From positions 1 through 56,533 of IMG/VR virus record IMGVR_UViG_3300028792_000027: DNA of 56,533 bases; one strand, 5' to 3'. Below are positions 48-43,721 of the stretch, one piece after another (positions within the stretch are counted from its first letter, which is position 1; each line of letters opens with the position of its first letter). Position numbers and translations under genes: made by a program. Source of the DNA: a virus (taxonomy: Duplodnaviria; Caudoviricetes). The notes beneath the pieces were generated by a model. The model was not told where the DNA came from. It ran no database searches and worked only from the letters and a program-made list of their open reading frames with translations.

Positions 48-1718
48 GTGCCGAACATAACCGTGATGATGGATAAGAGCATCATCGGCTACGGCTACCA
101 GGGTGAAGTTATCTCCACCCCGTCCACCACGGAGACGGATTACATGCTGTCCGTGGGGGAGATGCACCTCTACGACGGGCCGGTCGCTCCGACGGCGCGG
201 CCGGTGCCTGTGTATTCGGTGAACAGGGTGACGCCGGATTCGTTCGGGGACGTGGAAATCACCATCAGCGGCGGGTCGGGGACGGTCCGGTCGGTGAACG
301 GTTCGCTGCCGGACGGCTCGGGGAATGTGACGGTGACCACGGCGGGTGGTGTGACCGTCGTCGATAACGGGGACGGGACCGCGACGATCACGTCCGACGG
401 CACCGGCGGCGGTGGGGGGTCGGTCGGTGGTGGTGTGACGGTGGTCGATAACGGGGATGGGACGATCAGCATCGTCGCGTCCTCGGGCGGCGGCACCGTC
501 ACCGTCGGAACAACAGCGGGCACGGTCGCTGCGGGTGACGACTCCCGGATTACGGGCGCCGCGCAGAAGGCATCCAACCTCGCCGACCTGGTGAACAAAC
601 CCACCGCGCGCGCGAACCTTGGCCTGGGCGGCGCGGCCACCCTCAACGTAGGCACCACCACAGGCACGGTCGCGGCCGGGAACGACTCCCGCCTGTCGAC
701 GGCGGTGCAAACCGGGTCGGCGGCCGGGGGTGACCTGTCCGGGACGTACCCGAACCCGACGGTCGGGAAGATCCTGGGCGTCGCCGTCACCGGGACGAGC
801 GCGGCGGGGAAAACGATCCTCGGCGTCGACGCGGGGAACGCGGCATGGTCGGCGATCCCCGGCTCAACCCTCGCCTCGACCATCGCGTCCCTGCGGCCTG
901 TGTATCCGACACCCGGCTCCGGCTCGTATTCGTTGGTCTGGTCCGACTCGTTCCCCGTGACCGGTGGGGGTGCGACCGGCCCGATCGACCCGTCCAAGTG
1001 GCAGTTTCAGCAGGGGACGGGCAACGCCTACTTCAACGGCGGGTGGGGCAACACCGAGCTTGAGGTTTACACCACGTCCCGCACCAACACCGAATGCACG
1101 TCCGCTGGTTTGGAGATCCGCCTGCTGAACCAGTCCACCACCGGCTACGACGGCGCCGGGTCCTGGACATCGGGGAAGGTCCTGACTAAGGGCCTGTTCG
1201 CGGCCGCCTATGGCAAGGTGCAGGCTACGATCAAAGTTCCGTACGGGAAGGGGGCGTGGCCCGCGTTCTGGATGCTCGGCGCGGACTACCCCCAATCACA
1301 ATGGCCGAGTTGCGGCGAGATCGACATTATGGAGATCGGGCAGGGGCAGGACTTCTTCACGGTGCATGGGACGGTGCACGGGCCCGGGTACGCCGCGCAG
1401 TGGGGGCCCACCGGGGCGCACACGCACAGTTCGCGGCTCGATGGGGCGTTCCACACGTACAGCGTGGAGTGGCTACCGGACCGGCTTATCTGGTCGTTCG
1501 ACGCCACCCCCTACTTCACGCTCCTCAAGACGGACGTGCCGCAACCGGCGGATTGGGTGTTCGACCACCCCTTCTACATTCTCCTGAACGTCGCGGTCGC
1601 GAACGGCGGGTTCCCCGGCGCCCTCGACGTCGCCTCATTCGCGACCGGCACGTACGGCGGTTTCACCGGCCCCGCAGCGGTCATGCAAGTGCAGAACGTG
1701 TCCGTCTACCAAAAGTAG
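48..1718 (+). CDS. Virion fibre/decoration protein: shared N-terminal domain, fibre repeats, C-terminal GH16 (laminarinase-like) domain
   Basis: GH16 motifs GAWPAFWMLG, WPSCGEIDIME, FHTYSVEW, FDHPFYILLN; NLADL..ARANLGLG and VDNGDGT repeats. Confidence 0.85.
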   Translation: MPNITVMMDKSIIGYGYQGEVISTPSTTETDYMLSVGEMHLYDGPVAPTARPVPVYSVNRVTPDSFGDVEITISGGSGTVRSVNGSLPDGSGNVTVTTAGGVTVVDNGDGTATITSDGTGGGGGSVGGGVTVVDNGDGTISIVASSGGGTVTVGTTAGTVAAGDDSRITGAAQKASNLADLVNKPTARANLGLGGAATLNVGTTTGTVAAGNDSRLSTAVQTGSAAGGDLSGTYPNPTVGKILGVAVTGTSAAGKTILGVDAGNAAWSAIPGSTLASTIASLRPVYPTPGSGSYSLVWSDSFPVTGGGATGPIDPSKWQFQQGTGNAYFNGGWGNTELEVYTTSRTNTECTSAGLEIRLLNQSTTGYDGAGSWTSGKVLTKGLFAAAYGKVQATIKVPYGKGAWPAFWMLGADYPQSQWPSCGEIDIMEIGQGQDFFTVHGTVHGPGYAAQWGPTGAHTHSSRLDGAFHTYSVEWLPDRLIWSFDATPYFTLLKTDVPQPADWVFDHPFYILLNVAVANGGFPGALDVASFATGTYGGFTGPAAVMQVQNVSVYQK

Positions 1719-1723
1719 GAGCC

Positions 1724-1939
1724 ATGGTGCCGATCCGGGTGCGGCGTGGTACCGCCGCCGAGTGGGCCGCGAAGAACCCCGTCCTCGCCGCCGGCGAGTT
1801 GGGGGAGGCGACCGACACCCGCGTCCTGAAGGCCGGTGACGGTGTGACGGCGTGGGTGGACCTGCCCGGCCACGTACCCGGCACCTCCGGCATGACCCTC
1901 GTCGATAACGGGGACGGGACGGTCACCATCAGCGTGTAG
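1724..1939 (+). CDS. Small protein with Mtd_N/hyaluronidase-N-like domain
   Basis: AGGAG RBS, ATG 1724; IRVRRGTAAEWAAKNPVLAAGELGEATDT..KAGDGVTAW. Confidence 0.75.
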   Translation: MVPIRVRRGTAAEWAAKNPVLAAGELGEATDTRVLKAGDGVTAWVDLPGHVPGTSGMTLVDNGDGTVTISV

Positions 1940-1940
1940 C

Positions 1941-1961
1941 CCGGACGCGCCTTCGGAAACT
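1941..1961 (+). promoter_or_regulatory. CCGGACG-box promoter (leaderless)
   Basis: CCGGACG-N8-GAAACT-N7-ATG(1969). Confidence 0.8.
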
Positions 1962-1968
1962 CGTCGGC

Positions 1969-4590: not shown

Positions 4591-4594
4591 CCCC

Positions 4595-4615
4595 CCGGAC
4601 GGTTGTTCAGACAAT
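4595..4615 (+). promoter_or_regulatory. CCGGACG-box promoter (leaderless)
   Basis: CCGGACG-N8-GACAAT-N6-ATG(4622). Confidence 0.8.
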
Positions 4616-4621
4616 CGGGGG

Positions 4622-4777
4622 ATGGTGATTCTCGGTATCGTGCTGCTCGTGTTGGGGTTCATCCTGAAACTGGGTCTGCTGCTGGTTGTCGGCGCGGTGG
4701 TGATCGTGGTCGGGGCGGCTCTGCTGGTGGTGGGCGGTTTGGGTCGTGAGTTGGGTGGCCGCCGGTACTGGTACTAG
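4622..4777 (+). CDS. Small two-TM membrane protein (DUF6131-like), absent from ORF track
   Basis: Manual translation MVILGIVLLVLGFILKLGLLLVVGAVVIVVGAALLVVGGLGRELGGRRYWY (51 aa); fills the gap between two promoter boxes. Confidence 0.75.
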   Translation: MVILGIVLLVLGFILKLGLLLVVGAVVIVVGAALLVVGGLGRELGGRRYWY

Positions 4778-4778
4778 C

Positions 4779-4799: not shown

Positions 4800-4805
4800 C
4801 CGGGC

Positions 4806-7317: not shown

Positions 7318-7392
7318 TACAATAAGGGGTATGAAAACCCCCGCGACGGCTGACACCGTCCGGGGGCGTGACCGACTGTGAAGGAGCCGGTA
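7318..7392 (+). promoter_or_regulatory. -10 box (TACAAT) and structured leader with uORF
   Basis: TACAAT 7318-7323; ATG 7331 uORF to 7381; hairpin CCCCCGCGACGG/CCGTCCGGGGG; AAGGAG RBS. Confidence 0.55.
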
Positions 7393-8895
7393 GTGAACGA
7401 GTTTACCCCCGCGTACCGGGACGAGTCGGTGACCGTGTATGAGGGTGACTGCCTTGACGTGATGCGGGGCATGCCTGACTGTTCGGTGGATTCGGTGGTG
7501 ACCGACCCGCCATATTCGTATGCGTTCATGGGTAAAAATTGGGATAGCCACGAGTCGCCGCGCGCGTTCCAGGCGTGGTGCGAGTCGTGGGCTCGCGAGT
7601 GTCTGCGGGTGTTGAAGCCGGGCGGTTTCCTCGCTGCGTTCGGGGGTACCCGGACGTTTCACAGGTTGGCGTGCGGGGTGGAGGACGCGGGGTTCGAGGT
7701 TCGGGATTCGATCGGGCACGGCTCGTCGCTGCTGGCGTGGGTCCAAGGGCAAGGTTTTCCGAAGAGTCGGGACGTCGGTAAAGCGATCGACCGCGCCCGA
7801 GATGACTCTGCGGCGATCACGGCAGTTACGTCTGCGATGGCAGACGCCGCTGACCGTGCCGGGATTACTCGCGCGGAACTCGACGCACATATGGGAACTA
7901 GTGATATGGGCGGTTGGTGGCTGTCCCGGTTGCCGCACCGATCAGCGTGCCCACGGTGGGATCAGTGGCTTGTCATCAAGGACTACCTTCGGATGTCTGA
8001 CGATCTTGATGCCGAGGTGTGGCGCCTCAATGGTCGGAAGGGTAAGCCCGGTGACAACTGGGACAGCCGCGAGGTCATCGGTGTGCGTACGACCGGGATA
8101 GGCACAGGTGGGGGCGCGGTCCCGTATATCGCAGACAGCGAGAATCGCGACGTGACCGCTCCCGCGACGCCCGAGGCGAAACAATGGGCTGGGTTCGGTA
8201 CGGCTCTTCGCCCGAGTTGGGAGCCGATCGTGGTGGCCCGTAAACCAATCCGGGGCACGGTGGCGTCGAATGTGGTCACGTGGGGTACGGGTGCGCTGAA
8301 CATAGACGCCTGCCGGGTCGCGGGTGAGCGTGTCAGCACAACGCGGACTACCGCGCTCGGTGTCATGAATGATGACGGATGGGTTCCTACGCCTGCCGTT
8401 TTCGAGTCCCACCCTGCGGGTCGTTGGCCTGCGAATGTGGTGTTGGATGAGTCGGCCGCTGCCGAACTAGACCGGCAAAGCGGGGTGACGACATCTGGTG
8501 CGCTTCGTCCTTACAAAGAGCAGCATACCGTCGCATCCTCGTATCGTATGGACAGAGACAAGACTTACACGAGTGATGCGAATAGCGGCGGCGCGTCCCG
8601 GTTCTTCCCCGTATTCAAATACGAACCGAAAGCCCCCACAGCGGAACGCCCCAAACTCCCCGACGGCACCGCACACCCCACCGTGAAACCCCGCGACCTC
8701 ATAGCTTGGCTCGCCCGCCTCTTCACCCCACCCGGCGGGCTCATCCTCGACCCGTTCGCGGGCACGGGCACGACCGGTGAGGCGGCGGTGATGGAAGGGT
8801 TCCGTGCGGTGCTGATCGAACGTGACCCGAAATCGGTTGAGATGATCCGGGTGCGTCTACGGCGACCGATTCAGGCCGCGATGTTCGGCGCCTAA
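7393..8895 (+). CDS. N4-cytosine/N6-adenine DNA methyltransferase (beta class)
   Basis: GDCLDVM, VVTDPPY, HPTVKP, ILDPFAGTGTT; start placed at GTG 7393 after AAGGAG. Confidence 0.9.
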   Translation: MNEFTPAYRDESVTVYEGDCLDVMRGMPDCSVDSVVTDPPYSYAFMGKNWDSHESPRAFQAWCESWARECLRVLKPGGFLAAFGGTRTFHRLACGVEDAGFEVRDSIGHGSSLLAWVQGQGFPKSRDVGKAIDRARDDSAAITAVTSAMADAADRAGITRAELDAHMGTSDMGGWWLSRLPHRSACPRWDQWLVIKDYLRMSDDLDAEVWRLNGRKGKPGDNWDSREVIGVRTTGIGTGGGAVPYIADSENRDVTAPATPEAKQWAGFGTALRPSWEPIVVARKPIRGTVASNVVTWGTGALNIDACRVAGERVSTTRTTALGVMNDDGWVPTPAVFESHPAGRWPANVVLDESAAAELDRQSGVTTSGALRPYKEQHTVASSYRMDRDKTYTSDANSGGASRFFPVFKYEPKAPTAERPKLPDGTAHPTVKPRDLIAWLARLFTPPGGLILDPFAGTGTTGEAAVMEGFRAVLIERDPKSVEMIRVRLRRPIQAAMFGA

Positions 8896-8925: not shown

Positions 8926-9255
8926 GTGCCGGTCCGGTCCGAATGGCTGCTAGTGGTTCTGACTGTTCTCGCTGTGGCCCGGTTGACGCATTTGGTGACT
9001 ACGGACTATTTGACGCAGCCGTTCCGGTTGTGGGCGCACCGCCACGCACCCGAAAAGGTGGCGTACCTCGTCACGTGCCCGTGGTGCTTATCGCTGCATT
9101 GGGCGGCGGTAGTGGCCCCGGTGGTGTGGCTGTGGCCGCACTCGTGGTGGACGCAGGTTCCTTTGTTGGCCCTCACCGCGTCTTATGTGACGGGGATGGC
9201 GGAGCAACTGTCGGGGCTGGTGAACGCCGAGCATGAGCAGGCGACGGAAGAGTGA
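8926..9255 (+). CDS. DUF1360-like membrane protein
   Basis: LAVARLTHLVTTDYLTQPFR..YLVTCPWCLS motif, hydrophobic segments. Confidence 0.75.
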   Translation: MPVRSEWLLVVLTVLAVARLTHLVTTDYLTQPFRLWAHRHAPEKVAYLVTCPWCLSLHWAAVVAPVVWLWPHSWWTQVPLLALTASYVTGMAEQLSGLVNAEHEQATEE

Positions 9256-10982: not shown

Positions 10983-11003
10983 CCGGACGCGCCTGGGGAC
11001 ACT
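10983..11003 (+). promoter_or_regulatory. CCGGACG-box promoter (leaderless)
   Basis: CCGGACG-N8-GACACT-N7-GTG(11011). Confidence 0.85.
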
Positions 11004-11010
11004 CCGATCC

Positions 11011-11871
11011 GTGGCCGTGATCACGTTGCAGATGGACAAGGCCATCACCGGCCTCGGCCGGAAATACGACGTGATCACCATCGACCAATCCCCCGCCACC
11101 GACGCTTTGATAGCGAACGGGGAAGCGCACCTGTACACCGGCCCGACGGTTGACGCGCCGTACGTGCAGACCGTCACCTACGTCAAGACCGTCAACGGGC
11201 TCAAGCCGGACGGGTCTGGGAACGTCACCGTCGCGGGCGGCACCGGCACCATCGGCACGGTCACGATCAGCGGCACCCCCGCGACCGGGCAAGTGCCTAC
11301 GGCGGTGTCGGGGACGGCTGCGACGTGGCAGGCCCCCACAGGCGGGTCCGGCGTCACCGTCGGCACCACAGCGGGGACGGTCGCGGCGGGGGATGATGTG
11401 CGGATCACTTCCGCGCCGGACGCTCGGGTTGTCGCGCTCGGCAACATCACCGGCGCGGTGAACCTCGACCTCAGTCTCGGGACGGTGTTCACGGGCACCC
11501 TGACCGGCGACGTCACCGCGTCGTTCACGAACCCGCCCGCGTCGGGGAAGCTCAGCGAGCCGCTGATCCGGTTCGTCCAGGACGGCGTCGGCAGCCACCT
11601 GCTCACGGTGGCGGGCGTGTTGTGGGTGTACCCCGGCGGGACGGTCGGCGCCACAGCACCCGCTGTACCGGCGACACCCAGCAGCCAAATCACCATCCCG
11701 TTCCTGTCGTCGAACGGGTTCGCGACCGTCTACGGATTCGCCCCCTACTCCTTCATCGGCATGCCGCCGGTGGCGGGCAGTGCGGGGCAGGTGTTGACGC
11801 TCGCGTCGGATGGGACGGTCACGTGGGCCACCCCCGCCACGGGCACCGGGACGAGCAGCGGGTTCTGGTGA
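11011..11871 (+). CDS. Virion fibre/decoration protein with shared N-terminal domain
   Basis: MAVITLQMDKAITGLGRKYDV.. homologous to N-terminus of 48..1718; TVNG..PDGSGNVTV and GTTAGTVAAGDD modules. Confidence 0.75.
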   Translation: MAVITLQMDKAITGLGRKYDVITIDQSPATDALIANGEAHLYTGPTVDAPYVQTVTYVKTVNGLKPDGSGNVTVAGGTGTIGTVTISGTPATGQVPTAVSGTAATWQAPTGGSGVTVGTTAGTVAAGDDVRITSAPDARVVALGNITGAVNLDLSLGTVFTGTLTGDVTASFTNPPASGKLSEPLIRFVQDGVGSHLLTVAGVLWVYPGGTVGATAPAVPATPSSQITIPFLSSNGFATVYGFAPYSFIGMPPVAGSAGQVLTLASDGTVTWATPATGTGTSSGFW

Positions 11872-34779: not shown

Positions 34780-35028
34780 ATGCCTGAACGTGGAACGTCG
34801 CGGTGCGACGAATGCCTACAGGACGACGACCACCCGAAACTGCACTACGGGACGCGGACCATGCACCACGACTGCGCACCCCAATCCGTCCGCAGGGACG
34901 TGCTCGACGGCGCGCATTCGGTGCACCCCGACCTGACCCGCGCCGTATTCGCCGCCGCCGACGAGGGCATCCACGGCCACGACCTGGTCGCGCACATTCA
35001 CCGTCTGCATGAGGCGCACGATGGCTAA
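34780..35028 (+). CDS. Small Zn-binding hypothetical protein
   Basis: CDECLQDDDHPKL..HHDC. Confidence 0.65.
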   Translation: MPERGTSRCDECLQDDDHPKLHYGTRTMHHDCAPQSVRRDVLDGAHSVHPDLTRAVFAAADEGIHGHDLVAHIHRLHEAHDG

Positions 35029-35446
35029 AGCAACCACCTTCGCCAACGACATCCTCGACGCCGCCTACCAGAACGGCGCGTCGGGCACGTTCGTCCTCGG
35101 ATCCACCACCTACACCCTGCCCCTGAAATGCCGGTTCCAATCCACCCTGTCCACCGCCGGGGCGCAAGGCACCGAATTCCCCGCCACCGGCGGATACACA
35201 GCGGGCGGAGTCTCCCTGGCGGGGCTGTTCACCGCAGCCGCGTCCGCAGCGTCGAAATCCAACACCGGAGCCGTCACCGTCTCCAACGCGCCAGCCGGGA
35301 CGTGGGCCGGAATCGAAATCACCGACTCCACGGGCACCCCGAAACGGATGAACTTCGGACCCGGCACCACCCTCGGTAAAACCGTCAACTCCGGGGACAC
35401 CGTCACCCTCCCGTCATCGACCGGGATCACCGGCACCGAAACGTAA
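35021..35446 (+). CDS. Virion structural protein
   Basis: ANDILD..GGYT..KTVNSGDTVT pattern of collar/fibre-associated proteins. Confidence 0.6.
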   Translation: MAKATTFANDILDAAYQNGASGTFVLGSTTYTLPLKCRFQSTLSTAGAQGTEFPATGGYTAGGVSLAGLFTAAASAASKSNTGAVTVSNAPAGTWAGIEITDSTGTPKRMNFGPGTTLGKTVNSGDTVTLPSSTGITGTET

Positions 35447-36330
35447 TGGCCAACAACACCACCCTGCCCGGCACGGGTGACGTGATCGCCGACGAGGACA
35501 TCGGCGGCGTCAAATACCAGCTCGTGAAACTGGTCGACGGCACAGCCGCAGGCACCGGCAGGGTCGCGGGGTCCGCAGGCAACGGCCTCGCCGTGGACGT
35601 CACCCGCATAGCGGCGGGCACGAACGAGGTGGGTGGGGTCACCGCCCGGGGCCTGCTCATCACCCCCGTCGCCACGAACATCACCGCCGCGACACCCGCG
35701 AACACCGCCGCGTACGACGTGTCAAAAGCCGGCAACGTCAGTTTCTTCGTCAAAAACACGGCAGCCGGTACGGCGTACGTCGGCAACCCTGTGGTCGTGT
35801 TCGAGCAGTCCGACGACTCCACGTCATGGGGGCTGCTGCAAGTGCAACGCTCCTCCGACGGGGTCATCGGGTCCACGTTCACGATCCCAGCGGTCGGCGC
35901 GAACGGTGAAGCGATCTTCGAGGCCGCCGTCGAATCCGTCCTCTGGGTCCGGGCGCGGGTGACGACGGCGCAAACAACGAACGGCATGACCGTCGTCATC
36001 GCCGGTGGCGGTATGCCGTTCAGCCCGATCGTGTCGACGATGCCGCAACCCACCGGCACGGCCGGGGCGCAAACCTCGGTCGCGGCGACGGTCACGACGA
36101 ATACGACGCTGATAGCGGCCGACCCGACCCGGAAGGGGCTGCTCGTTTACAACGAGTCCACGTCGTCGCTGTTTGTGCTGCTGGGGGCGGGCACCGAATC
36201 GGCCACCGTCTACAGTTTGCAACTCACACCGAACCAACTGTATGAGGTGCCGCTGAACTTCTGCACGCTGCGGGTGTCGGGGCATTGGGTGACCGCGAAC
36301 GGCTCCGCACGCATCACGGCAGTCACCTAG
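35446..36330 (+). CDS. Virion structural protein
   Basis: DIGGVKYQLVKL N-terminus; DPTRKGLLVYNES C-terminal domain. Confidence 0.6.
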   Translation: MANNTTLPGTGDVIADEDIGGVKYQLVKLVDGTAAGTGRVAGSAGNGLAVDVTRIAAGTNEVGGVTARGLLITPVATNITAATPANTAAYDVSKAGNVSFFVKNTAAGTAYVGNPVVVFEQSDDSTSWGLLQVQRSSDGVIGSTFTIPAVGANGEAIFEAAVESVLWVRARVTTAQTTNGMTVVIAGGGMPFSPIVSTMPQPTGTAGAQTSVAATVTTNTTLIAADPTRKGLLVYNESTSSLFVLLGAGTESATVYSLQLTPNQLYEVPLNFCTLRVSGHWVTANGSARITAVT

Positions 36331-36332
36331 CC

Positions 36333-36854
36333 ATGCCTCTCGCGCCCGTCGCGGGAATGGACTTCCTCGGTTCCCTGAAACTGTCCGGTAACGCGGTCAC
36401 GACGGGGGTGCTGACCATCCCCGCCAGGGACGTCCTGTTCCTGCTCGTCAACATCGCCGGCTACTCCTCCGGCGGCGACATCGCCTCCTTGAGGTTCAAC
36501 GGCGACACGGGCGCCAACTACTGGGACCGGCACCTCACAAGCGCAGCCGGGGGTGTGGTGTGGACGAACACCCAAACCCTGTCCACCACCCTCATACGGC
36601 TCGCCGGGAACGTCGTCAACGTCCACCGCACCGTCGCCGTGTCCATCACCAACATCGCGTCCCTGTCGAAACCGCTGGTGATGCAAACCCAGACAGCGTC
36701 CACGTCGGCGGCTACGGGCGGCCTGACCGACCTCGGGTCGGGGGAGTGGGTGAACACGTCAGCGCAGATCACGTCGATCGAGATGCGGACCGCTGGGGGT
36801 TCGATAACGATGCCGTCGGGGACGGGTTTCGGGGTGTGGGGTAAGAACCTGTGA
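36333..36854 (+). CDS. Virion structural/receptor-binding domain protein
   Basis: LRFNGDTGANY..ITSIE..GTGFGVWG. Confidence 0.6.
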   Translation: MPLAPVAGMDFLGSLKLSGNAVTTGVLTIPARDVLFLLVNIAGYSSGGDIASLRFNGDTGANYWDRHLTSAAGGVVWTNTQTLSTTLIRLAGNVVNVHRTVAVSITNIASLSKPLVMQTQTASTSAATGGLTDLGSGEWVNTSAQITSIEMRTAGGSITMPSGTGFGVWGKNL

Positions 36855-38413
36855 GCCTGCTCCTGCTGTTCAGCCAGGCGGGGGCGGTCACCCAGTCCGG
36901 GGCGGTCGGTTTGGGGGGTGCCGGTGTCCTGGTTGTGGGGCAGGCGCAGACCGAGCCGGGCGCGGTCGGCGTGGCCGGTTCGGGCGCCGTGGCCGTCGCG
37001 GGCCAGCAGACAGTGCTGGGGACTGTAGCGCTAACAGGTGCCGGCGTTGTCACTGTCGCGGTGCTGGTGACCGAGCCCGGCGTCGTGGCGTTGGCGGGGT
37101 CGGGCGGGACCGCCGTCACCGGCTCGGGCACTATCCCGGGCACGGTCGCGCTCACCGGCGCTGGCAGTGTCACGGTAGCGGGTACCGGTGCCACCACCGG
37201 GGCCGTGGCGCTCGCCGGGGCGGGGGCCCTCGCGACCACCGGCGCCGGAACAACCGCCGGGGCGGCGCCGCTCACCGGCGCTGGTGCCCTCACCGTTACG
37301 GGCGTCGCGGCCGAGCTGGGGACTGTAGCGCTGCAAGGTGCGGGCGCGGTCGCTGTAGCGCAGTCCCAGACCGTCCCCTCCACCGTGGCCCTCGCCGGGG
37401 CTGGGGCTGTCGCCGCGACAGGTTCAGGCGGCATCACAGGCGCGGTAGCCCTCGGCGGCACGGGTGCCCTCGGCGTCGCCGGCGCTGGCGCCATCAGCCC
37501 AACGGTGGTCGTGCCCGGCACTGCGGCCCTGGCCGTCGCGGCGACACAAACCACCCCCAGCGCTACCACCCTCACCGGTGCCAGCACGCTCACCGCGACC
37601 GGGACCGGCACCACAACCGGCCCGGTGGCCATCGCGGGGGCGGGCGCGGTCACAGTCACGCAGTCCCAAACAGGGCCGGGCACGGCCACTCTCGCAGGCG
37701 CGGGGACACTCACAACGACGGGCACAAGCACCGAACCCGCCGCCGCGCCACTCGCCGGCACGGGCGCTCTGAATGTCGTCACGGGGCAAGCCGCCGCCCT
37801 CACCCTCACCGGCATGGGGGCGGTCACCGTCACCGCCCAAGTCGGGGGCGCCGCAGTGCTGGACGGGTCGGGCACCGTCACAGTCCAGGCACTAACCCAA
37901 GCCGCTCTGGCACTGACCGGGTCGGGTAGCACCGTCGTCGCTGCAACCCAAACCACCCCCGCCACCGTCGCACTCAACGGCGCCAGCACGCTCACCGCCC
38001 AGCCGCCCGGCGCGCAAACCGCCACCGCACCGCTCACCGGTTCATCGACGTTCACCGCCGCGACGACCCTCACTCAGCCCGCCACCGTCCCCATGCCCGG
38101 CACGGGCAGCCTCACAACGACACCCGCCGTCATCGGCACGGCCAGCCTCGGCGGGGTGGGGACGCTCGACACGGCAGGCGGCGCCCTCCTCCAAACCGTC
38201 ATAGCTGTCACGGGCACGGCGGGGCTCACCATCACAGGATTGGGCGCGTTCACCGCCGCGATAGTCATCGCCGGCCGGGGCGACCTCCGAGCCGCCACCC
38301 TCGCCTTAGCGAGGCTCACCGTGTGGACCGGCCGGGCCGAGCACACCATCACCGTCGACCGTGGCGTCCTCGCCGGCCCGCTCAGGTTCGACCAAGTCTG
38401 GTCAGGTACCTGA
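36851..38413 (+). CDS. Ala/Gly/Thr/Val repeat fibre-like protein
   Basis: About 21-aa repeats of G[TA]VALxGAGxV/L. Confidence 0.65.
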   Translation: MSLLLLFSQAGAVTQSGAVGLGGAGVLVVGQAQTEPGAVGVAGSGAVAVAGQQTVLGTVALTGAGVVTVAVLVTEPGVVALAGSGGTAVTGSGTIPGTVALTGAGSVTVAGTGATTGAVALAGAGALATTGAGTTAGAAPLTGAGALTVTGVAAELGTVALQGAGAVAVAQSQTVPSTVALAGAGAVAATGSGGITGAVALGGTGALGVAGAGAISPTVVVPGTAALAVAATQTTPSATTLTGASTLTATGTGTTTGPVAIAGAGAVTVTQSQTGPGTATLAGAGTLTTTGTSTEPAAAPLAGTGALNVVTGQAAALTLTGMGAVTVTAQVGGAAVLDGSGTVTVQALTQAALALTGSGSTVVAATQTTPATVALNGASTLTAQPPGAQTATAPLTGSSTFTAATTLTQPATVPMPGTGSLTTTPAVIGTASLGGVGTLDTAGGALLQTVIAVTGTAGLTITGLGAFTAAIVIAGRGDLRAATLALARLTVWTGRAEHTITVDRGVLAGPLRFDQVWSGT

Positions 38414-38779
38414 CGACGACGAACACCACGCACCAGCCTGAACCGTCACCGACGGCGTCGTCCCCGTCAACGTCCAATTCAGCCGGTACATCGTCGCGTA
38501 AAGCGGGTCCACCAACACCCGGTACGTCCCGACAGCCGTCAGGCCGGTGCCTGTCGCGGCGGTCACCCAGTTACCGGAAAACTCGTCATACTCCTCAACG
38601 ATCGGGGTGAACGTCGCCCCCGCGCCCGATATCGCCGTCACCTGCACGTACACGGCGGCACGGTCATGATTACCGAGCGGCGATTCGATGGGGTACCCCG
38701 GCTGCACCGTCGTGAACGGCCCCGCTGCCGCTGTGGTCGTGAACGACTTCGCCAGGGTGAAGTACTCTTTCGTCGCCAT
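38402..38779 (-). CDS. Beta-sandwich structural protein
   Basis: VYVQVTAISG..TFT..YRLNWTLTGTTPS. Confidence 0.6.
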   Translation of the reverse strand: MATKEYFTLAKSFTTTAAAGPFTTVQPGYPIESPLGNHDRAAVYVQVTAISGAGATFTPIVEEYDEFSGNWVTAATGTGLTAVGTYRVLVDPLYATMYRLNWTLTGTTPSVTVQAGAWCSSSSGT

Positions 38780-39591
38780 TATTCGGCCGTCCCCGTCACC
38801 GAAGCCACGTTGATGTACCTCCGCGCGGGCGACCCGGACGTGGCGCCGTACTCCACGGAGAAGTGCATCACCGACTGCGACGTCGCGGCGGACGTGAAAA
38901 TGTCCAGCCCGGTCAGGTCGACGAACTGGTCAGCGACCTGCGCGTAGACGTACTTCTTCGTGTTCAGGTTGACGGCGAGTTTCACGAACCACCACAGGCC
39001 CGTCTTGTCCACGAAGTTCCCGCTGGGCTTGTAGGAGTGCTCATCCGTCCCCTGGTTCAGGATGGTGCCCCTGGTGGTCCACGTGGTCCCGTCCGTCCCA
39101 AGCGTCTTCGCGAGCAGCGTCTTCGGCGCGCCCGCGTTGTACGTGCCCGCACTGTTGTCGCCGGACGTGTCGAGCCACAACCTGCCGTAATAAGCGTTCG
39201 CGGAATCCCGGTTGTACACCGAGATTGTCGTGTACGAGTTGATCGCCGACGACGAGGACGTGAACCTCAGCCACAGCGAAACGGCGAACACACCCGAGAA
39301 CTGGTCAATGATCCGGCGTTTACAGATCACGTAATTGGACGGGCCCATCGTCGCCGGGCCCGACCCGGCCGTCGCTGTGGTTCCTTGCGGATCCAAGCGC
39401 ATCGTCGGCCGCCCGGCGAACGTCACGTTAGTGTCCCGGTACGCGCAGCCGATCCCGTCATTCCACATCCCCAGGACGGGGTGGACGAAGTCCTCCTGGA
39501 ACAGCACCCGCCCCCGGCTCGTGCGGTCCGCCGCCGTCCGGGGCAGGAACAGGCCAGCGTTCGGGTTGATCGGGGCGTCAAGAATACCCAT
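38779..39591 (-). CDS. Lectin/concanavalin-like hypothetical protein
   Basis: TGATG start MGILDAP; beta-rich sequence. Confidence 0.55.
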   Translation of the reverse strand: MGILDAPINPNAGLFLPRTAADRTSRGRVLFQEDFVHPVLGMWNDGIGCAYRDTNVTFAGRPTMRLDPQGTTATAGSGPATMGPSNYVICKRRIIDQFSGVFAVSLWLRFTSSSSAINSYTTISVYNRDSANAYYGRLWLDTSGDNSAGTYNAGAPKTLLAKTLGTDGTTWTTRGTILNQGTDEHSYKPSGNFVDKTGLWWFVKLAVNLNTKKYVYAQVADQFVDLTGLDIFTSAATSQSVMHFSVEYGATSGSPARRYINVASVTGTAE

Positions 39592-40028
39592 CAAGTCACC
39601 ACTATCTGCGGGGCTGCCGTGACCGCGCCCGTCGCGTCGCGGGTCACCGCCGGTTGGGTGTATGTCGCCGACCCGTGGGTGACGTGGTACGCGTCGACCG
39701 CCCCCGGAAACAGCGTTGACAGGGTGTCGGCGGTGTAGGTTCCGGTCACACCATCCGGCCACGTCACCGGCGCCGAAGTAACCGCGCCCGCGCTATTCCG
39801 GGTGACGGTGCCGGTGATCAGCACGTCCGGTGTCCTCGCGAGGGCGGTGTAGTTGACGGGGTCGGTGGAGCGGAGCTGCGCGGGCAGCCCGAGCCACGAC
39901 GTCGTCCCGTCACCGAACTTCACCTTCCCGGTGTCGGTCTCCTCCCCCGGCTCACCAGCGGCCAGGACAGGGTTCGCCGTCGACCACTGGACGGCGGTAC
40001 CCCGCCGCACCCGGATCGTGGCGGTCAC
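39591..40028 (-). CDS. Mtd_N-domain protein
   Basis: IRVRRGTAVQWSTANPVLAAGEPGEETDTGKVKFGDG; paralog of 1724..1939. Confidence 0.75.
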   Translation of the reverse strand: MTATIRVRRGTAVQWSTANPVLAAGEPGEETDTGKVKFGDGTTSWLGLPAQLRSTDPVNYTALARTPDVLITGTVTRNSAGAVTSAPVTWPDGVTGTYTADTLSTLFPGAVDAYHVTHGSATYTQPAVTRDATGAVTAAPQIVVT

Positions 40029-40282
40029 GGCCCGCCTCCGTCGACGAGGGTCAACGGGCCGCCCACGGTCACCGCGACATCACCGCTGCCGTCGGGCCGG
40101 GCGCCGTTCACGGTGAGGACCGGGCCCGCGTACGGGCCGGGCGTGTACCCCCCCGAATAGACATGCGCCTCCCCGTTCACGATCAGGGCGTCCGTTTGCG
40201 CGGTCTGGGTGAGGGTGAGGACCGTCCCGGCGTCGCCGTACCCGACGATCGACTTGTCCATCTGGATCGTCACCACAGCCAC
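40025..40282 (-). CDS. Protein consisting mainly of the shared N-terminal domain plus linker
   Basis: MAVVTIQMDKSIVGYGDAG..TDALIVNGEAH. Confidence 0.75.
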   Translation of the reverse strand: MAVVTIQMDKSIVGYGDAGTVLTLTQTAQTDALIVNGEAHVYSGGYTPGPYAGPVLTVNGARPDGSGDVAVTVGGPLTLVDGGGP

Positions 40283-40289
40283 GGCGTTG

Positions 40290-40310
40290 AGTGTCCGCGC
40301 GGGCGTCCGG
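40290..40310 (-). promoter_or_regulatory. CCGGACG-box promoter (leaderless)
   Basis: CCGGACG-N8-GACACT-N7-GTG(40282). Confidence 0.85.
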
Positions 40311-40312
40311 GG

Positions 40313-40522
40313 CTAGTTGCCGTACAGGAACATCCAATGCTCAGCGGCCTGGCACAGGCGCAGCAGGACGGGCCGTTCCGTCAGGTATGTCGGGTCGGCG
40401 GGGTCCCACGCGTACAGCCGCTCCCGCGCGGTGACGAGCGCCAGGCCGAGCGGCATCTCCCGGTACACCCCCAACGCGTCCTCCGCGATGGGGAACGCCG
40501 GGGGCAGCGGCACATTATCCAT
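40313..40522 (-). CDS. Hypothetical protein
   Basis: TGATG coupling. Confidence 0.55.
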   Translation of the reverse strand: MDNVPLPPAFPIAEDALGVYREMPLGLALVTARERLYAWDPADPTYLTERPVLLRLCQAAEHWMFLYGN

Positions 40523-40956
40523 CAGAGGATCCTCCAGTTCGCGCCGTCGCTGATGACCCGTAGGGTGGCGTTGTTCGCGAGCGACGCGGGTACGGCCCCG
40601 TCGATGGTTTGCGCGGCTGTGACGGCTGGGGTGACCGCGCCGCCGGACGTGTTCTTCAGCGTGTACTGGGACGTGTTCCCGACCGCCGTGGGCAGGGTGG
40701 GGACACCGCCCGCGCCGATGAGCACCACGTAGTCGATCCCCGCCACCCCGGCCAACGTTGTGGCCGTGGTGATCGACAGTATCGACCGGGAGATCGGCAA
40801 AGTAACCACGGTCGGCGTCACGGGGCCCGAGTAGGTGTGCGCCTCCCCGTTGGCGATCATCGCGTCGGTCTGCGCCGTCTGGGTCACGGTGATCACGTCA
40901 CCCGCCGAGCCGTACCCGGTGATGCTGCGGTCCATCTGGATAGTGACTAGAGCCAT
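40522..40956 (-). CDS. Protein with shared N-terminal domain and small fibre-tip-like domain
   Basis: MALVTIQMDRSITGYGSAGDV..; TLPTAVGN..YTLKN..TIDG..SDGANW. Confidence 0.75.
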   Translation of the reverse strand: MALVTIQMDRSITGYGSAGDVITVTQTAQTDAMIANGEAHTYSGPVTPTVVTLPISRSILSITTATTLAGVAGIDYVVLIGAGGVPTLPTAVGNTSQYTLKNTSGGAVTPAVTAAQTIDGAVPASLANNATLRVISDGANWRIL

Positions 40957-40962
40957 GCCCGG

Positions 40963-40990
40963 AGTGTCCCCGGACGCGTCCGGGCAGCAT
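40963..40990. promoter_or_regulatory. Overlapping divergent CCGGACG promoters forming a 16-bp palindrome
   Basis: CCCGGACGCGTCCGGG 40969-40984; minus GACACT-N6-ATG(40956); plus CAGCAT-N7-ATG(40998). Confidence 0.85.
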
Positions 40991-40997
40991 CCCGGTT

Positions 40998-41552
40998 ATG
41001 CCGAGAGCCGTGAAAACCGGGCGCCACCTCGAATACCAGCGGGTCATGGACGTCACCCCCGCCGTCCGCAACCCCAAAGACCACAACCTCCCCCTCATCC
41101 GGGGCCTGATTGAACAGTTCGGGTTCACCCAACCCCTGCTGGTTGATGAGCGGACCGGGCGGCTCGTGGCGGGGCACGGCAGGCTGCTCGTCCTCGACGC
41201 GATGGAGAAAGAGCAGGCCGCGCCGCCGGACGGTATCCGCGCCGACGAATCCGGGATATGGCTCGTCCCCGTCACCCGTGGATGGTCATCCCGGTCAGAC
41301 AGGGAAGCGGAAGCGTACCTGTTGGCGGACAACCGGTCGTCGGAGGTCGGCGGTTGGGTGCCACCCGAACTGTCTATGATCCTCGCGGAGCAGGATGAGG
41401 AGTTGCGGCGCCTCATCGGGTGGTCAGACGCGGACACGGAACGGCTAGTCGCGTCACTGGCTCCACCCGCCGCGCCGGAAGGGTTCCCCGAGTTCGACGA
41501 CATGATCGAAACGAAGCATGAGTGCCCAAAATGCGGGTACGCATGGAGCTAG
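40998..41552 (+). CDS. ParB-like N-terminal domain protein with C-terminal Zn ribbon
   Basis: RNPKDH..IEQFGFTQPLLVD..LVAGHGRL..ADNR; CPKCG. Confidence 0.85.
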   Translation: MPRAVKTGRHLEYQRVMDVTPAVRNPKDHNLPLIRGLIEQFGFTQPLLVDERTGRLVAGHGRLLVLDAMEKEQAAPPDGIRADESGIWLVPVTRGWSSRSDREAEAYLLADNRSSEVGGWVPPELSMILAEQDEELRRLIGWSDADTERLVASLAPPAAPEGFPEFDDMIETKHECPKCGYAWS

Positions 41553-42955
41553 ACCCCCGCGATCCCGAGACGGGAGTCCCCATTTCGTTACAGAATTACG
41601 CGATAGGCAGGGAGTGGCACACGCTACAGCCCGGCACCAACTCGCCTACCCGCTTCAACCGTGCACGTGCTCACTTTGACAGGCCCTGCCCGACCGTCAC
41701 GGCAGCGGGTGGCAGTAGGGGCCCTGGCGCGGTCATGCCACCGCACGAATGCCGTCAGTGGACCCTCGTCGAGTTGCGTGCCCTGTGCGGATTCCCGCCC
41801 GACTACGTCCTGACCGGAACATACGCCGACCGGTGGACACGGCTAGGCAACGCCGTACCACCACCCATGATCCAAGCCGTCGCGACCACCCTACGCGACC
41901 GGATCCTCCAACCGAAAGACACACCCATGCCGCCCGCCACGAAACCCCCCTACAGGGTGCCGCTCGTATCCGAAACAGCGGCAGCACCACGCAACGGCCT
42001 CAACGTCGCATCCACATTCGCCGGCGGCGGCGGATCCTCCTACGGCTACGAACTCGCCGGATACACCGTCCTATGGGCCAACGAAGTCGTCCCAGCCGCG
42101 CGGGACACCTACCGGGCGAACCACCCCAACACTATCCTCGACGGCCGCGACATCCGGGAAGTGCAAGCCGCCGACATCCTCACCGCCACCGGCCTCGGCG
42201 TGGGCGACCTTGACCTGTTCGACGGCAGTCCCCCGTGCCAATCGTTCTCGACAGCGGGGAAACGGGAGAAAGGGTGGGGGAAGGTCGCGGCGCACGCGGA
42301 CGGCACCACCCAAGCGTCGGATGACCTGTTCTTCGAGTACACCCGGCTCCTGGCGGGGTTGCGGCCGCGCGTGTTCGTGGCGGAGAACGTGTCCGGTCTG
42401 GTGAAGGGCAAAGCGAAAGGCTACTTCAAGCTGATCCTCGCGGCGTTGCAGGGCTGCGGTTACCGGGTGTCCGCCCGACTGTTGGATGCGCAGTGGTTGG
42501 GGGTTCCGCAAGCGCGGCAGCGGATCATTTTCGTGGGTGTCCGGGATGATTTGGGTATGGGTCCGGTGCATCCGTCACCGTTGCCGTACCGGTACACGGT
42601 AAGGGACGCCATCGGGGGCGCGGGGGCTTCGATGACTATGGGCGCCCACGGGTTCTTCCCAGGCCGTGTGGTTCAGTTCGATACCGAGCCAGCTCCGGCT
42701 GTCGCAGCGTCAGGCTTCGGCTCCTACCGGTACACCATTCACCGTGGCAGCGCCGTCGCGACCCTCGCAATCACCGAGCTTCGCCGTCTGTGCGGCTTCC
42801 CGGACGATTACACCCTGACCGGCGGGTACGGCGACCAGTGGGCGCGGCTCGGGAACTCCGTACCCCCACCCATGATGCAACACGTAGCGGCGACAATCCG
42901 TGACCGCATCCTCCAACCATCATCCCGGACGTTGAGCGGCACACTCAGCCCGTGA
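41543..42955 (+). CDS. DNA cytosine-5 methyltransferase with duplicated motif IX/X segment at the N-terminus
   Basis: STFAGGGG, GSPPCQSFS, AENV, PQARQRI, LGNSVPP; start may be 41522, 41543 or 41927. Confidence 0.88.
   Translation: MELDPRDPETGVPISLQNYAIGREWHTLQPGTNSPTRFNRARAHFDRPCPTVTAAGGSRGPGAVMPPHECRQWTLVELRALCGFPPDYVLTGTYADRWTRLGNAVPPPMIQAVATTLRDRILQPKDTPMPPATKPPYRVPLVSETAAAPRNGLNVASTFAGGGGSSYGYELAGYTVLWANEVVPAARDTYRANHPNTILDGRDIREVQAADILTATGLGVGDLDLFDGSPPCQSFSTAGKREKGWGKVAAHADGTTQASDDLFFEYTRLLAGLRPRVFVAENVSGLVKGKAKGYFKLILAALQGCGYRVSARLLDAQWLGVPQARQRIIFVGVRDDLGMGPVHPSPLPYRYTVRDAIGGAGASMTMGAHGFFPGRVVQFDTEPAPAVAASGFGSYRYTIHRGSAVATLAITELRRLCGFPDDYTLTGGYGDQWARLGNSVPPPMMQHVAATIRDRILQPSSRTLSGTLSP
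42925..42945 (+). promoter_or_regulatory. CCGGACG-box promoter (leaderless)
   Basis: CCGGACG-N8-CACACT-N6-GTG(42952). Confidence 0.8.
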
Positions 42956-43470
42956 CCGCTCCAAGCGACATCGGCAACTTCTTGGCCGAGACGCTCCTCA
43001 CGACGGTCCAGGCACAGTTCACCACCAACAGTCTGCCGATGCCCGCCACCTGCATGTACATCGCCGGAGTGTCAACTTCGGTGGATGATTGTTGTGAGGG
43101 GCTGCTGTGGACGAGGGTCGACACCGTCTACCCCACCGACGGGTCAGGTAATCCGTACACGCAGGCACGGCCGGACTGGGACATCCCCGCCTGGGTCCAT
43201 CCCGTCCAATGCGGCATTTTGAACTGCCATTTGGTGATTGATTCCGAGGGCAACCCGATACCGCCCGACCTCGAAACGCAGTACGCCGTCCGCGACGGCC
43301 AATACCGCGCCGCGATCCTCCAAGCGATTACCGTCCACTACCCGCCACTCGTCGGGCCGTGCGCTTTGGGGTACAGGATCTCCCCGTGGACACCCATCGG
43401 ACCCGAAGGCGGCTGCTCCGGCGGCCTCATCACCGTCAACGTCATCACCACCGCACTACTCACCGTCTAG
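42952..43470 (+). CDS. Tail terminator-like protein
   Basis: DDCCEGLLWTRV..YP, WTPIGPEGGCSG; cluster B-type neck gene. Confidence 0.65.
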   Translation: MTAPSDIGNFLAETLLTTVQAQFTTNSLPMPATCMYIAGVSTSVDDCCEGLLWTRVDTVYPTDGSGNPYTQARPDWDIPAWVHPVQCGILNCHLVIDSEGNPIPPDLETQYAVRDGQYRAAILQAITVHYPPLVGPCALGYRISPWTPIGPEGGCSGGLITVNVITTALLTV

Positions 43471-43478
43471 GAGCAGTC

Positions 43479-43721
43479 ATGGCCAAGGGTTTCTACGAAC
43501 TGCACAGGTCCCTCACCGGGATCGGGGAGGCGGGGCAGGTGGTCGAGCTCGACATCGACGACGCGACGAAAGGCATGGAAGCGAACGAACTGATAACCCG
43601 CGTCCCGAAAACGGCTTTGAAGGACCCAAGCCAGTACGCGCCCGTCCCTGAAGACTCGGCGGAGGAAACCGACCCGCCGCACGTCGCCGACGTTGTGTCA
43701 CCCGCCCAAGAAACCACCTGA
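43479..43721 (+). CDS. Small protein with a divergent copy of the shared N-terminal domain
   Basis: AGGAG RBS; YELHRSLTGIGEAGQVVEL..EANELI. Confidence 0.6.
   Translation: MAKGFYELHRSLTGIGEAGQVVELDIDDATKGMEANELITRVPKTALKDPSQYAPVPEDSAEETDPPHVADVVSPAQETT

What the first reader, a model, noticed from the sequence alone, without database searches (positions are those of the whole stretch)
48..43721. Shared ~45-aa N-terminal domain on unrelated payloads: possible modular virion display system
Seen: genes at 48(+), 11011(+), 40282(-) and 40956(-) start with near-identical [IV]T[ILV][QM]MD[KR][SA]I.G[YL]G....V[IL].......TD.[ML][IL]..GE.H.Y.G; 43479(+) has a divergent copy (RSLTGIGEAGQVVEL). Each of the four close copies has its own CCGGACG promoter. 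Payloads differ: fibre+GH16, fibre+beta domain, linker only, small tip domain. Inference: the pattern resembles the ribosomal L9 N-terminal-type beta-beta-alpha module and could be a common docking tag, so interchangeable adhesins/glycanases compete for the same virion sites and give heterogeneous particles.
Basis: partly seen in the sequence, partly recalled or inferred. Interest (0 to 1): 0.82.

Follow-up and report, generated by a model that had tools for sequence, protein, structure and literature searches.

The report
Shared L9-like handle on phage fibres
Four fibre-like and sugar-cutting proteins of an uncultured high-GC phage start with the same rare 45-residue domain, predicted to fold like the N-terminal domain of ribosomal protein L9, and it most likely fastens interchangeable host-recognition proteins to the virus particle.

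Summary
Genes at 48(+), 11011(+), 40282(-) and 40956(-) open with one ~45-aa domain (in-window E 1e-17 to 1e-19). The copies are old paralogues (dS about 1) kept at protein level.

The family is very rare: about 15 outside proteins among 1.8-5.8 billion, none in Pfam or PHROGs. Payloads differ: GH16, SGNH hydrolase, a 590-aa protein of unnamed family, a small tip domain.

Pfam Ribosomal_L9_N gives sub-threshold hits. An AlphaFold model (pLDDT 79) finds ribosome large-subunit chains and isolated L9 N-domains first. All 14 domains are acidic, so they are not L9 proteins.

New here: the domain is remotely like the N-terminus of phrog_901, a small protein in the head-tail connector gene block of 469 actinophage records.

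The CCGGACG motif is genome-wide: I count 16 gene starts, so it is not special to these genes.

Best reading: a shared virion-attachment handle for interchangeable fibres, a known principle built on a new domain. The docking site, competition for sites and mixed particles remain untested.

The parts
20..47 (+). upstream box (CCGGACG, then an ACACTC-like element) ending at the start codon of gene 48
   Evidence: The same box lies at the same distance before 12 other genes by my count.
48..1718 (+). 556-aa protein: N-domain (48-182), Pro-rich linker, fibre-type repeats, GH16 glycanase
   Evidence: PF00722, E 3.5e-19; tail-fibre PHROGs on the shaft
10983..11010 (+). upstream box of gene 11011
11011..11871 (+). 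286-aa protein: N-domain (11011-11145), fibre-type linker, C-terminal domain of no known family. The start at 11011 is supported by the box and by the relative P0010.
40025..40282 (-). 85-aa protein: N-domain (40148-40282) plus one fibre-type repeat. The upstream box is at 40283-40310.
39591..40028 (-). 145-aa protein beginning with an Mtd_N domain. Its start overlaps the stop of the 85-aa gene by 4 nt. Probable distal partner of the 85-aa handle protein (inference).
   Evidence: PF18454, E 7.8e-16
40522..40956 (-). 144-aa protein: N-domain (40822-40956) plus a small tip domain. The upstream box is at 40957-40983, inside a palindrome shared with the divergent ParB-like gene.
   Evidence: (phrog_37034, E 6.6e-6)
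40313..40522 (-). 69-aa protein of unknown function between the two minus-strand N-domain genes
   Evidence: no family
38402..39591 (-). two further genes of the same minus-strand run (270 aa and 125 aa), start/stop-coupled to the Mtd_N gene
43479..43721 (+). 80-aa stand-alone protein: weak N-domain look-alike plus an acidic tail. It lies between a phrog_810 gene and the Neck1/tail-completion gene, the slot held by phrog_901 in related phages.
   Evidence: No relatives in 5.8 billion proteins.

Best explanation
The ~45-residue domain is a shared N-terminal attachment handle. Each of the four proteins is a fibre-like virion appendage. Its handle plugs into one type of site on the particle, and its C-terminal part carries a different host-surface function: a GH16 glycanase, an unknown beta-rich domain, a small tip domain, or (through the 85-aa handle protein) an Mtd_N-headed receptor-binding protein.

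The handle is predicted to have the small strand-hairpin-strand-helix-strand fold of the ribosomal L9 N-domain. It is acidic and is not an L9 protein. It is probably related to the N-terminal domain of a small protein (phrog_901) that this phage lineage encodes in its head-tail connector gene block.

Shown: the shared domain, its rarity, its protein-level conservation, the varied payloads, the predicted fold, and the remote link to phrog_901. Inferred: that it binds the virion at all, and where.
For: 1. Four paralogous N-termini, with dS about 1 but conserved residues, point to selection on the protein and not on the DNA.

2. In the 15 outside family members the domain is N-terminal in 12. In the other three small proteins it follows a 40-90 aa extension. 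Behind it come unrelated payloads: GH16 (P0011), SGNH hydrolase PF13472 (P0024), a 590-aa protein (P0016), a 145-aa tip domain (P0012, P0026, P0027) and others.

3. Directly behind the domain come Pro-rich linkers and fibre-type repeats that hit tail-fibre PHROGs (phrog_523, 2282, 4465). The gene after the 85-aa handle protein starts with Mtd_N.

4. Several family members seem to share contigs. P0011, P0014 and P0026 each list a longest contig of 11,245 bases, and P0018 and P0025 one of 2,695. The sibling phage contigs carry the same four copies. Several handles per genome may therefore be the rule.

5. A conserved N-terminal anchor with swapped distal modules is the established design of phage receptor-binding proteins (PMC6872550 and PMC12692247; search listing and start of abstract only).

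6. Fold evidence: Pfam L9_N hits 4 of 14 segments, best E 0.0028. The AF2 model has pLDDT 79.2. In Foldseek the first 32 rows are ribosome large-subunit entries or isolated NTL9, with rmsd 1.6-2.3 A over 36-43 columns. VIA-align gives Z 5.8.

7. Link to a connector-block protein:
- phrog_901 hits 5 of 14 segments (best E 0.024).
- Its only hit in the window's six frames is the 40956 copy (E 0.0037).
- hhalign of the 14-row family against 7 phrog_901-type proteins gives 80.6%, E 1.3e-5, over 45 gapless columns.
- Against 50 window proteins, the phrog_901 alignment ranks three handle genes and the fifth copy as its top four.
Against: No result here shows binding to any virion protein, or that these proteins are in particles at all.

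The four genes are scattered. One lies after the lysis genes, one among glycanase genes upstream of the portal gene, and two in a minus-strand run inside the connector block. They are not next to the Dit and Tal-like tail-tip genes.

All fold matches are weak in absolute terms. Foldseek's best E is 0.071 with none at or below 0.001. VIA's best Z is 5.8, and the tool notes that Z under 8 can be a common arrangement. The model rests on an 18-row alignment.

The phrog_901 link is sub-threshold in every single test. Gene 48 is not among the top nine. The fifth copy does not match the phrog_901 alignment (0.2%).

No known anchor family matches the domain.

Between orthologues the handle is less conserved than the GH16 part (63% against 80%). 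That fits either co-evolution with a partner or loose constraint.
Confidence: 0.55

Rival explanations
1. The domain is an assembly or oligomerisation handle and not a docking tag. It would nucleate trimer formation or be held by a dedicated chaperone (for instance the 69-aa protein at 40313-40522), and the fibres would attach to the virion through other parts or other proteins.
For: The domain sits directly before fibre-type repeats. A small gene of unknown function lies between the two minus-strand copies. No docking partner was identified.
Against: Known intramolecular chaperones and trimerisation caps of phage fibres are C-terminal (established knowledge, recalled). The 144-aa protein has almost no shaft between the handle and the tip. 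The related fold in phrog_901-type proteins occurs without any fibre.
Confidence: 0.15
2. The proteins are free enzymes or adhesins released at lysis, not virion parts. The domain would then bind a host cell-envelope polymer, as a small cell-wall-binding module does.
For: Gene 48 lies just after the lysis genes and carries a GH16 glycanase. Payloads elsewhere include an SGNH hydrolase. None of the genes adjoins the tail-tip genes.
Against: There is no match to any known wall-binding family. The linkers are fibre-type and hit tail-fibre PHROGs. One copy is followed by an Mtd_N receptor-binding-type gene. The 85-aa protein has no enzyme at all. The related Gordonia phage Clawz also has an annotated tail fibre gene after its lysis cassette.
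Confidence: 0.1
3. The domain is a true L9 mimic that binds ribosomal or other RNA.
For: Sub-threshold Pfam Ribosomal_L9_N hits and the L9 N-domain as the best structural match.
Against: All 14 domain segments are net acidic, -1 to -5, whereas the L9 N-domain is strongly basic (established knowledge, recalled). The L9 long helix and C-domain are absent. The payloads are extracellular-type fibres and glycanases.
Confidence: 0.03
4. The shared N-terminus is a relic of duplication or cassette spread, together with its promoter box, and has no common function of its own.
For: Each copy carries the same upstream box. Mosaic cassette exchange is common in actinophages (established knowledge, recalled).
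Against: Synonymous sites are saturated (dS 0.91-1.15) while 19-33 of 44 residues stay identical, and 16 columns are invariant. The same domain is kept before different payloads in distinct metagenomic relatives. The box is genome-wide, so it does not mark one cassette.
Confidence: 0.05

Closest known systems
Conserved N-terminal anchor/adapter domains of phage receptor-binding proteins (for example the anchor-branch systems of Klebsiella phages; PMC6872550, PMC12692247)
   Same: One conserved N-terminal module sits before swapped distal binding or depolymerase modules, and one phage carries several such proteins.
   Different: There is no sequence match to any such anchor. The domain is much smaller (about 45 aa) and has an L9 N-domain-like predicted fold. 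The genes are scattered, each with its own upstream box, in a high-GC siphovirus-type genome. Attachment is not shown.
Ribosomal protein bL9 N-terminal domain (Pfam PF01281; isolated NTL9 structures 2hbb, 2hba, 2hvf)
   Same: The predicted strand-hairpin-strand-helix-strand fold matches, with rmsd 1.6-1.8 A over about 40 residues. There is weak sequence-profile similarity.
   Different: Scores are below the Pfam cut-off (11.7 against 20.7 bits). The domain is acidic, not basic. There is no L9 helix or C-domain. It is fused to fibres and glycanases.
phrog_901: small uncharacterised protein of the head-tail connector gene block (Gordonia phage Clawz gp52; 469 phage records, mostly Mycobacterium phages)
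   Same: The N-terminal 45 residues align without gaps to the handle family (hhalign 80.6%). The window's fifth copy occupies its slot between a ~175-aa gene and the Neck1/tail-completion gene.
   Different: phrog_901 proteins are stand-alone, at 111-148 aa in the 7 read. They have an acidic linker and a C-terminal helical motif (HeH at E 0.036 in 1 of 7). They lack the Gly-x-Gly hairpin and the GE.H.Y.G motif. Their function and virion presence are unknown.
Phage lambda gpFI C-terminal domain (2lsm) and B. subtilis prophage protein YqbF (2hjq)
   Same: Small phage morphogenesis-module proteins whose domains superpose on the model: Z 4.2, rmsd 1.7 A over 41 residues, and Z 2.9 over 42 residues. 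A passage of PMC4493119 reports that Popovic et al. 2012 suggested an interaction of gpFI with the major head protein.
   Different: The structural scores are low and there is no sequence signal. A passage of PMC4493119 calls gpFI a capsid chaperone protein that helps DNA-terminase complexes meet procapsids; that it is absent from particles is recalled. The primary paper is not held.

Membership tests
Ribosomal_L9_N (PF01281) | Sequence score over the Pfam gathering cut-off | tested here: not met
   4 of 14 domain segments match at E up to 10, best E 0.0028. In the window's six frames there is one hit, 11038-11139, at 11.7 bits against a cut-off of 20.7. None of the five window proteins matched at E up to 1.
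Ribosomal_L9_N (PF01281) | Fold: strand, Gly-rich hairpin, strand, helix, strand | tested here: met
   The AF2 model has pLDDT 79.2, with strands at 3-8, 21-25 and 39-41 and a helix at 28-35. The first 32 Foldseek rows are ribosome large-subunit entries or isolated NTL9, and three rows are titled NTL9. That the ribosome chains are bL9 is inferred, not printed. VIA gives Z 5.8. This is a prediction only.
Ribosomal_L9_N (PF01281) | Basic rRNA-binding surface, followed by the L9 connecting helix and C-domain | tested here: not met
   Net charge is -1 to -5 in 14 of 14 segments. The domain is followed by Pro-rich linkers and fibre repeats. The basic nature of L9 is recalled.
N-terminal anchor domains of phage receptor-binding proteins (functional class) | Conserved N-terminal module before variable distal modules, in several proteins of one phage | tested here: met
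N-terminal anchor domains of phage receptor-binding proteins (functional class) | Homology to a described anchor family | tested here: not met
   No Pfam or PHROG family covers the domain over threshold. There was no match in 50,697 phage records.
N-terminal anchor domains of phage receptor-binding proteins (functional class) | Physical attachment to a virion protein | not testable with these tools
   This needs virion proteomics, pull-down or cryo-EM.
phrog_901 connector-block protein | Sequence-profile match | tested here: inconclusive
   5 of 14 segments match, best E 0.024. The window's six frames give one hit at E 0.0037. hhalign gives 80.6%. The fifth copy scores 0.2% against phrog_901.
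phrog_901 connector-block protein | Position between the ~175-aa gene and the Neck1/tail-completion gene | tested here: met
   Met for the fifth copy only (43479-43721, compared, where 6 of 6 further phages show the same order). Not met for the four fibre genes.
lambda gpFI C-domain / YqbF | Structural and sequence similarity | tested here: inconclusive
   VIA gives Z 4.2 (2lsm) and 2.9 (2hjq). No Pfam hit.

The most novel reading that the evidence does not exclude
The handle is a co-opted copy of the N-terminal domain of the phage's own connector-block protein (phrog_901 type; here the 80-aa protein at 43479). The four fibres and glycanases would then hang where that small protein binds, at the head-tail junction or on the capsid, and not at the tail tip. 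They would compete with each other and with the free small protein for a fixed number of sites. That would give a built-in, promoter-tunable display system on an L9-like plug, a fibre-attachment design not described for tailed phages.
Probability: 0.2. Interest if true: 0.75.

Novelty: new variant of a known kind. Interest (0 to 1): 0.55.

Why it matters
A minimal 45-residue domain that is enough to hang any payload on a phage particle would be a compact tag for phage display and for host-range work in actinobacterial phages, where fibre attachment is poorly understood.

The link to phrog_901 also gives a first functional lead for a small, conserved, unannotated protein. It is found in 469 phage records, mostly Mycobacterium phages. 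The lead is that its N-domain may be a virion-binding plug.

The finding would also add a protein-protein role to a fold best known from the ribosomal protein L9 N-domain, although GINS and primase chains also scored in the fold search.

Tried and rejected
Searches that found nothing
- Close DNA relatives in the 50,697 phage records: none.
- tblastn of the 85-aa protein, the fifth copy and P0025 against the same records: none. P0021 gave one E 0.05 row in an unannotated record.
- The search for related loci with the domain alignments: nothing in viral contigs (2 scans) or genome contigs. In metagenome contigs it found only three contigs of a sibling phage.
- The ESM Atlas gave no usable hit.
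- A profile search of PDB sequences gave only a 12-residue chance match.

Structure and complex jobs
- Single-sequence AlphaFold2 of the 144-aa protein was useless (pLDDT 37).
- Complex prediction with three copies of the 85-aa handle protein gave no verdict (median 0.27, mark 0.42, controls not run). It counts neither for nor against anything.

Other negative comparisons
- The Clawz tail fibre (gp69) and tail protein (gp63) show no handle.
- Pfam on 7 phrog_901-type proteins gave no family over cut-off, no L9_N and no YqbF. My recalled 'YqbF-like architecture' for them is therefore not supported beyond one weak HeH hit.
- The fifth copy has no relatives in 5.8 billion proteins.

Literature
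- The gpFI passages I looked for in PMC10721106 and PMC11445458 turned out to concern gpFII.
- Popovic et al. 2012 is not held. I know it only through a passage of PMC4493119.
- PMC7150772 (passages) names the Rosebush capsid and decoration proteins only. Its mass-spectrometry tables are supplements, which are closed, and they might show whether the phrog_901-type protein is in virions.
- Searches for prior descriptions: 'tail fiber' + 'ribosomal protein L9' + 'phage' gave 2 irrelevant papers. 'YqbF' gave 3 irrelevant papers. 'L9 N-terminal domain' + 'bacteriophage' gave 0 papers. 'minor tail protein' / 'shared N-terminal' / 'actinobacteriophage' gave nothing relevant among the 10 of 109 listed.

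Hits not read
- Of the 17 hits, one is the window's own protein and I read 12 of the other 16. I set aside P0017 as a false hit, because it is a repeated protein matching in three stretches. I did not read P0019, P0020, P0022 and P0023, which are long proteins with 5-6 short stretches.

Full report
**What the window is.** The window is a whole IMG/VR virus record of 56,533 bases at about 67% G+C. It is classed as linear, and CheckV estimates it at about 80% complete. PHROG and Pfam scans give a siphovirus-type map:

- portal, 18506-20047
- MuF-like protein, 24030-26945
- major capsid protein, 29763-31598, and a second capsid-type protein, 31674-32576
- major tail protein, 33087-33815
- head-tail adaptor, 33900-34769
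- Neck1/tail-completion protein, 43721-44179
- tape measure, 45785-49423
- Dit, 49420-50301
- Tal-like minor tail protein, 51163-52290
- lysin-like and peptidase genes, 53137-55202
- a run of fibre, glycanase and adhesin-type genes between 48 and 18475

The nearest cultured phages are actinophages of Gordonia, Mycobacterium, Microbacterium and Arthrobacter, with portal identity of only 31-35%. Gordonia phage Clawz has the same overall order, including a tail fibre gene after the lysis cassette.

**The observation.** The products of 48(+), 11011(+), 40282(-) and 40956(-) begin with the same domain of about 45 residues.

- A search of the window with the 85-aa protein finds the other three copies at E 6e-17 to 1.4e-19.
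- Sixteen alignment columns are invariant.
- A profile of the domain scores the four at E 5e-30 to 9e-25 among all frames of 40 aa or more.
- The copies are old. Nucleotide identity is 54-70%, dS is 0.91-1.15 and dN/dS is 0.26-0.67. What is conserved is therefore the protein, not the DNA.
- All-against-all BLAST of 50 window proteins shows no other shared N-terminal module. Only fibre repeats are shared, between genes 48 and 14989.

**The upstream box.** CCGGACG occurs 71 times against 45.8 expected. It lies 27-28 nt before each of the four start codons. By my count it also lies 26-28 nt before 12 other gene starts: 1969, 4622, 4806, 8926, 18506 (portal), 24030, 40998 (ParB-like), 42952, 45785 (tape measure), 53137, and on the minus strand 29612 and 21445. 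Sites of the same kind that fall inside genes are left out of this count. The box is a genome-wide start-associated element. It may be a promoter of leaderless mRNAs (inference). It says nothing specific about the four genes.

**What follows the domain.**
- Gene 48 has a Pro-rich linker and repeats that hit tail-fibre PHROGs, then a GH16 domain (Pfam E 3.5e-19).
- Gene 11011 has similar repeats and a C-terminal part with no family.
- Gene 40956 has a short linker and a tip domain that matches phrog_37034 (E 6.6e-6).
- Gene 40282 is only 85 aa, the domain plus one repeat. The next gene overlaps its stop by 4 nt and begins with an Mtd_N domain (PF18454, E 7.8e-16). Mtd_N is the N-terminal domain of a phage receptor-binding protein family. 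The handle and the binding part may therefore be two polypeptides here (inference).
- Together with a 69-aa gene and two further coupled genes, these form a six-gene minus-strand run at 38402-40956.

**Rarity and partners elsewhere.**
- A profile of the four copies, run against 1.84 billion representative proteins, gave 17 hits at E up to 1e-3 and 7 at up to 1e-10. One of the 17 is the window's own protein. I read 12 of the other 16 and accept 11.
- A word-seeded search of 5.8 billion proteins with a 14-row profile gave 14 hits, four of them new. That makes 15 outside members.
- The domain is N-terminal in 12 of them. In three small proteins (P0018, P0021, P0025) it follows a 40-90 aa extension.
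- Payloads include GH16 (P0011), SGNH hydrolase PF13472 (P0024), a 590-aa protein of unnamed family (P0016), the 145-aa tip type (P0012, P0026, P0027) and unknowns.
- Several members list the same longest contig: 11,245 bases for P0011, P0014 and P0026, and 2,695 for P0018 and P0025.
- Three metagenome contigs of a sibling phage carry the same four copies.
- No member was found in IMG/VR apart from the window itself, in GTDB genomes, or in deposited phage records.

**The fold.**
- No Pfam or PHROG family covers the domain over threshold.
- Among the 14 domain segments, Pfam Ribosomal_L9_N is the family hit most often: 4 of 14, best E 0.0028.
- Over the window's six frames its only hit is the 11011 copy, at E 0.0135 and 11.7 bits against a cut-off of 20.7.
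- AlphaFold2 with an 18-row alignment gave pLDDT 79.2, with strands at 3-8 and 21-25, a helix at 28-35 and a strand at 39-41.
- In Foldseek against the PDB the first 32 rows are ribosome large-subunit entries or the isolated L9 N-domain. TM is 0.53-0.68 and rmsd 1.6-2.3 A over 36-43 columns. E-values are poor, as expected for 55 residues: the best is 0.071 and none is at or below 0.001.
- VIA-align against 48,161 chains puts ribosome chains first (Z 5.8). Then come GINS B-domains (Z 5.5-5.7), an archaeal primase chain (Z 4.6), the lambda gpFI C-domain (Z 4.2) and YqbF (Z 2.9). The tool warns that Z under 8 can be a common arrangement.
- It is not L9. All 14 segments are net acidic, and the L9 helix and C-domain are missing.

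- In the viral structure library the best matches are small (59-139 aa in the top rows) uncharacterised proteins, mainly of actinophages. The best is a 94-aa Gordonia phage protein at E 1.7e-3 and 38% identity.
- Among PHROGs, phrog_901 is hit by 5 of 14 segments, best E 0.024. Its only hit in the window's six frames is the 40956 copy, at E 0.0037.
- phrog_901 is Clawz gp52 (E 3.9e-29). Its relatives occur in 469 phage records, 429 of them Mycobacterium phages.
- In 6 of 6 further genomes that I opened, it lies in the same order: adaptor, a ~175-aa gene, this gene, then the Neck1-type gene (annotated as tail assembly chaperone in several of them), then the tape measure region.
- An alignment of 7 such proteins against the 14-row handle family gives hhalign 80.6%, E 1.3e-5, over 45 gapless columns.
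- As a control, I ran the same phrog_901 alignment against 50 window proteins. Its top four are the 40956 gene, the fifth copy, the 11011 gene and the 40282 gene, all in register. Individual probabilities are low (16.6% down to 1.1%), and gene 48 is not in the top nine.
- The fifth copy (43479-43721, 80 aa) sits exactly in the phrog_901 slot, after a phrog_810 gene and before Neck1.
- By sequence it is nearer to the handle family: 62.6% (the next window protein scores 2.5%) and 70.7%. Against phrog_901 it scores 0.2%. It has no relatives of its own.
- Compared with Clawz, the window has about 8 kb inserted into this connector block. The insert spans 34.8-42.9 kb and includes the minus-strand fibre run.

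**Reading.** The anatomy fits the established design of phage receptor-binding proteins, which is a conserved N-terminal anchor before exchangeable distal modules (PMC6872550, PMC12692247; listing and abstract starts only). I therefore take the domain to be a shared virion-attachment handle, with confidence 0.55. Nothing here shows binding, and the docking site is open.

The tail tip is the usual place for such anchors. The remote link to a connector-block protein, and the weak fold match to the lambda gpFI C-domain, keep a bolder reading alive: attachment at the neck or capsid, in competition with the free 80-aa protein (probability 0.2). On gpFI, Popovic et al. suggested an interaction with the major head protein, according to a passage of PMC4493119.

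The rivals are an assembly-only handle, a wall-binding module of free enzymes, an RNA-binding L9 mimic, and a functionless duplication relic. Each is given with its evidence in its own section.

**Novelty.** The principle is known. The domain family, its predicted L9-like fold, its extreme rarity, its four scattered copies and its probable kinship with phrog_901 are not described in any paper that my searches found. I class it as a new variant of a known kind.

Noticed in passing
window 20-53137, both strands: CCGGACG occurs 71 times against 45.8 expected. By my count it lies 26-28 nt before the start codon of 16 genes, followed by an ACACTC-like element 6-8 nt before the start. This may be a non-canonical promoter of leaderless mRNAs or a start-associated sequence.
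   Followed up: partly
window 40968-40985: A perfect 16-nt palindrome holds the CCGGACG boxes of both divergent genes, 40956(-) and the ParB-like 40998(+).
   Followed up: no
window 34780-42955: About 8 kb is inserted into the head-tail connector gene block, compared with Clawz-type phages. It holds four plus-strand genes of no family, the six-gene minus-strand fibre run, a ParB-like gene and a C5 methyltransferase.
   Followed up: partly
window 36851-38413 (+): A 520-aa protein made almost wholly of Gly/Ala/Thr/Val repeats of about 20 residues. It has no PHROG or Pfam hit.
   Followed up: no
window 40025-40028 (-): The stop of the 85-aa handle gene overlaps the GTG start of the Mtd_N gene (GTGA). 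This is either translational coupling of a two-piece fibre or a fixed split of one gene. The sibling contig has the same 95-residue open frame.
   Followed up: partly
window 1-50 and locus L008: The sibling phage contig L008 ends within 9 nt of the window's left end, just upstream of gene 48. This may be a true genome end or a shared assembly break.
   Followed up: no
window 7378-8895, 9252-10247, 41522-42955: Three DNA methyltransferase-type genes and a ParB-like gene lie in one 56-kb phage record.
   Followed up: no
loci L009, L013-L018: In the 7 phrog_901-type proteins read (469 phage records hold a relative), there is an N-terminal strand-rich ~45 aa, an acidic linker and a conserved C-terminal helical motif. 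All are annotated as hypothetical. The neighbouring Neck1-type gene is annotated as tail assembly chaperone in several records.
   Followed up: partly
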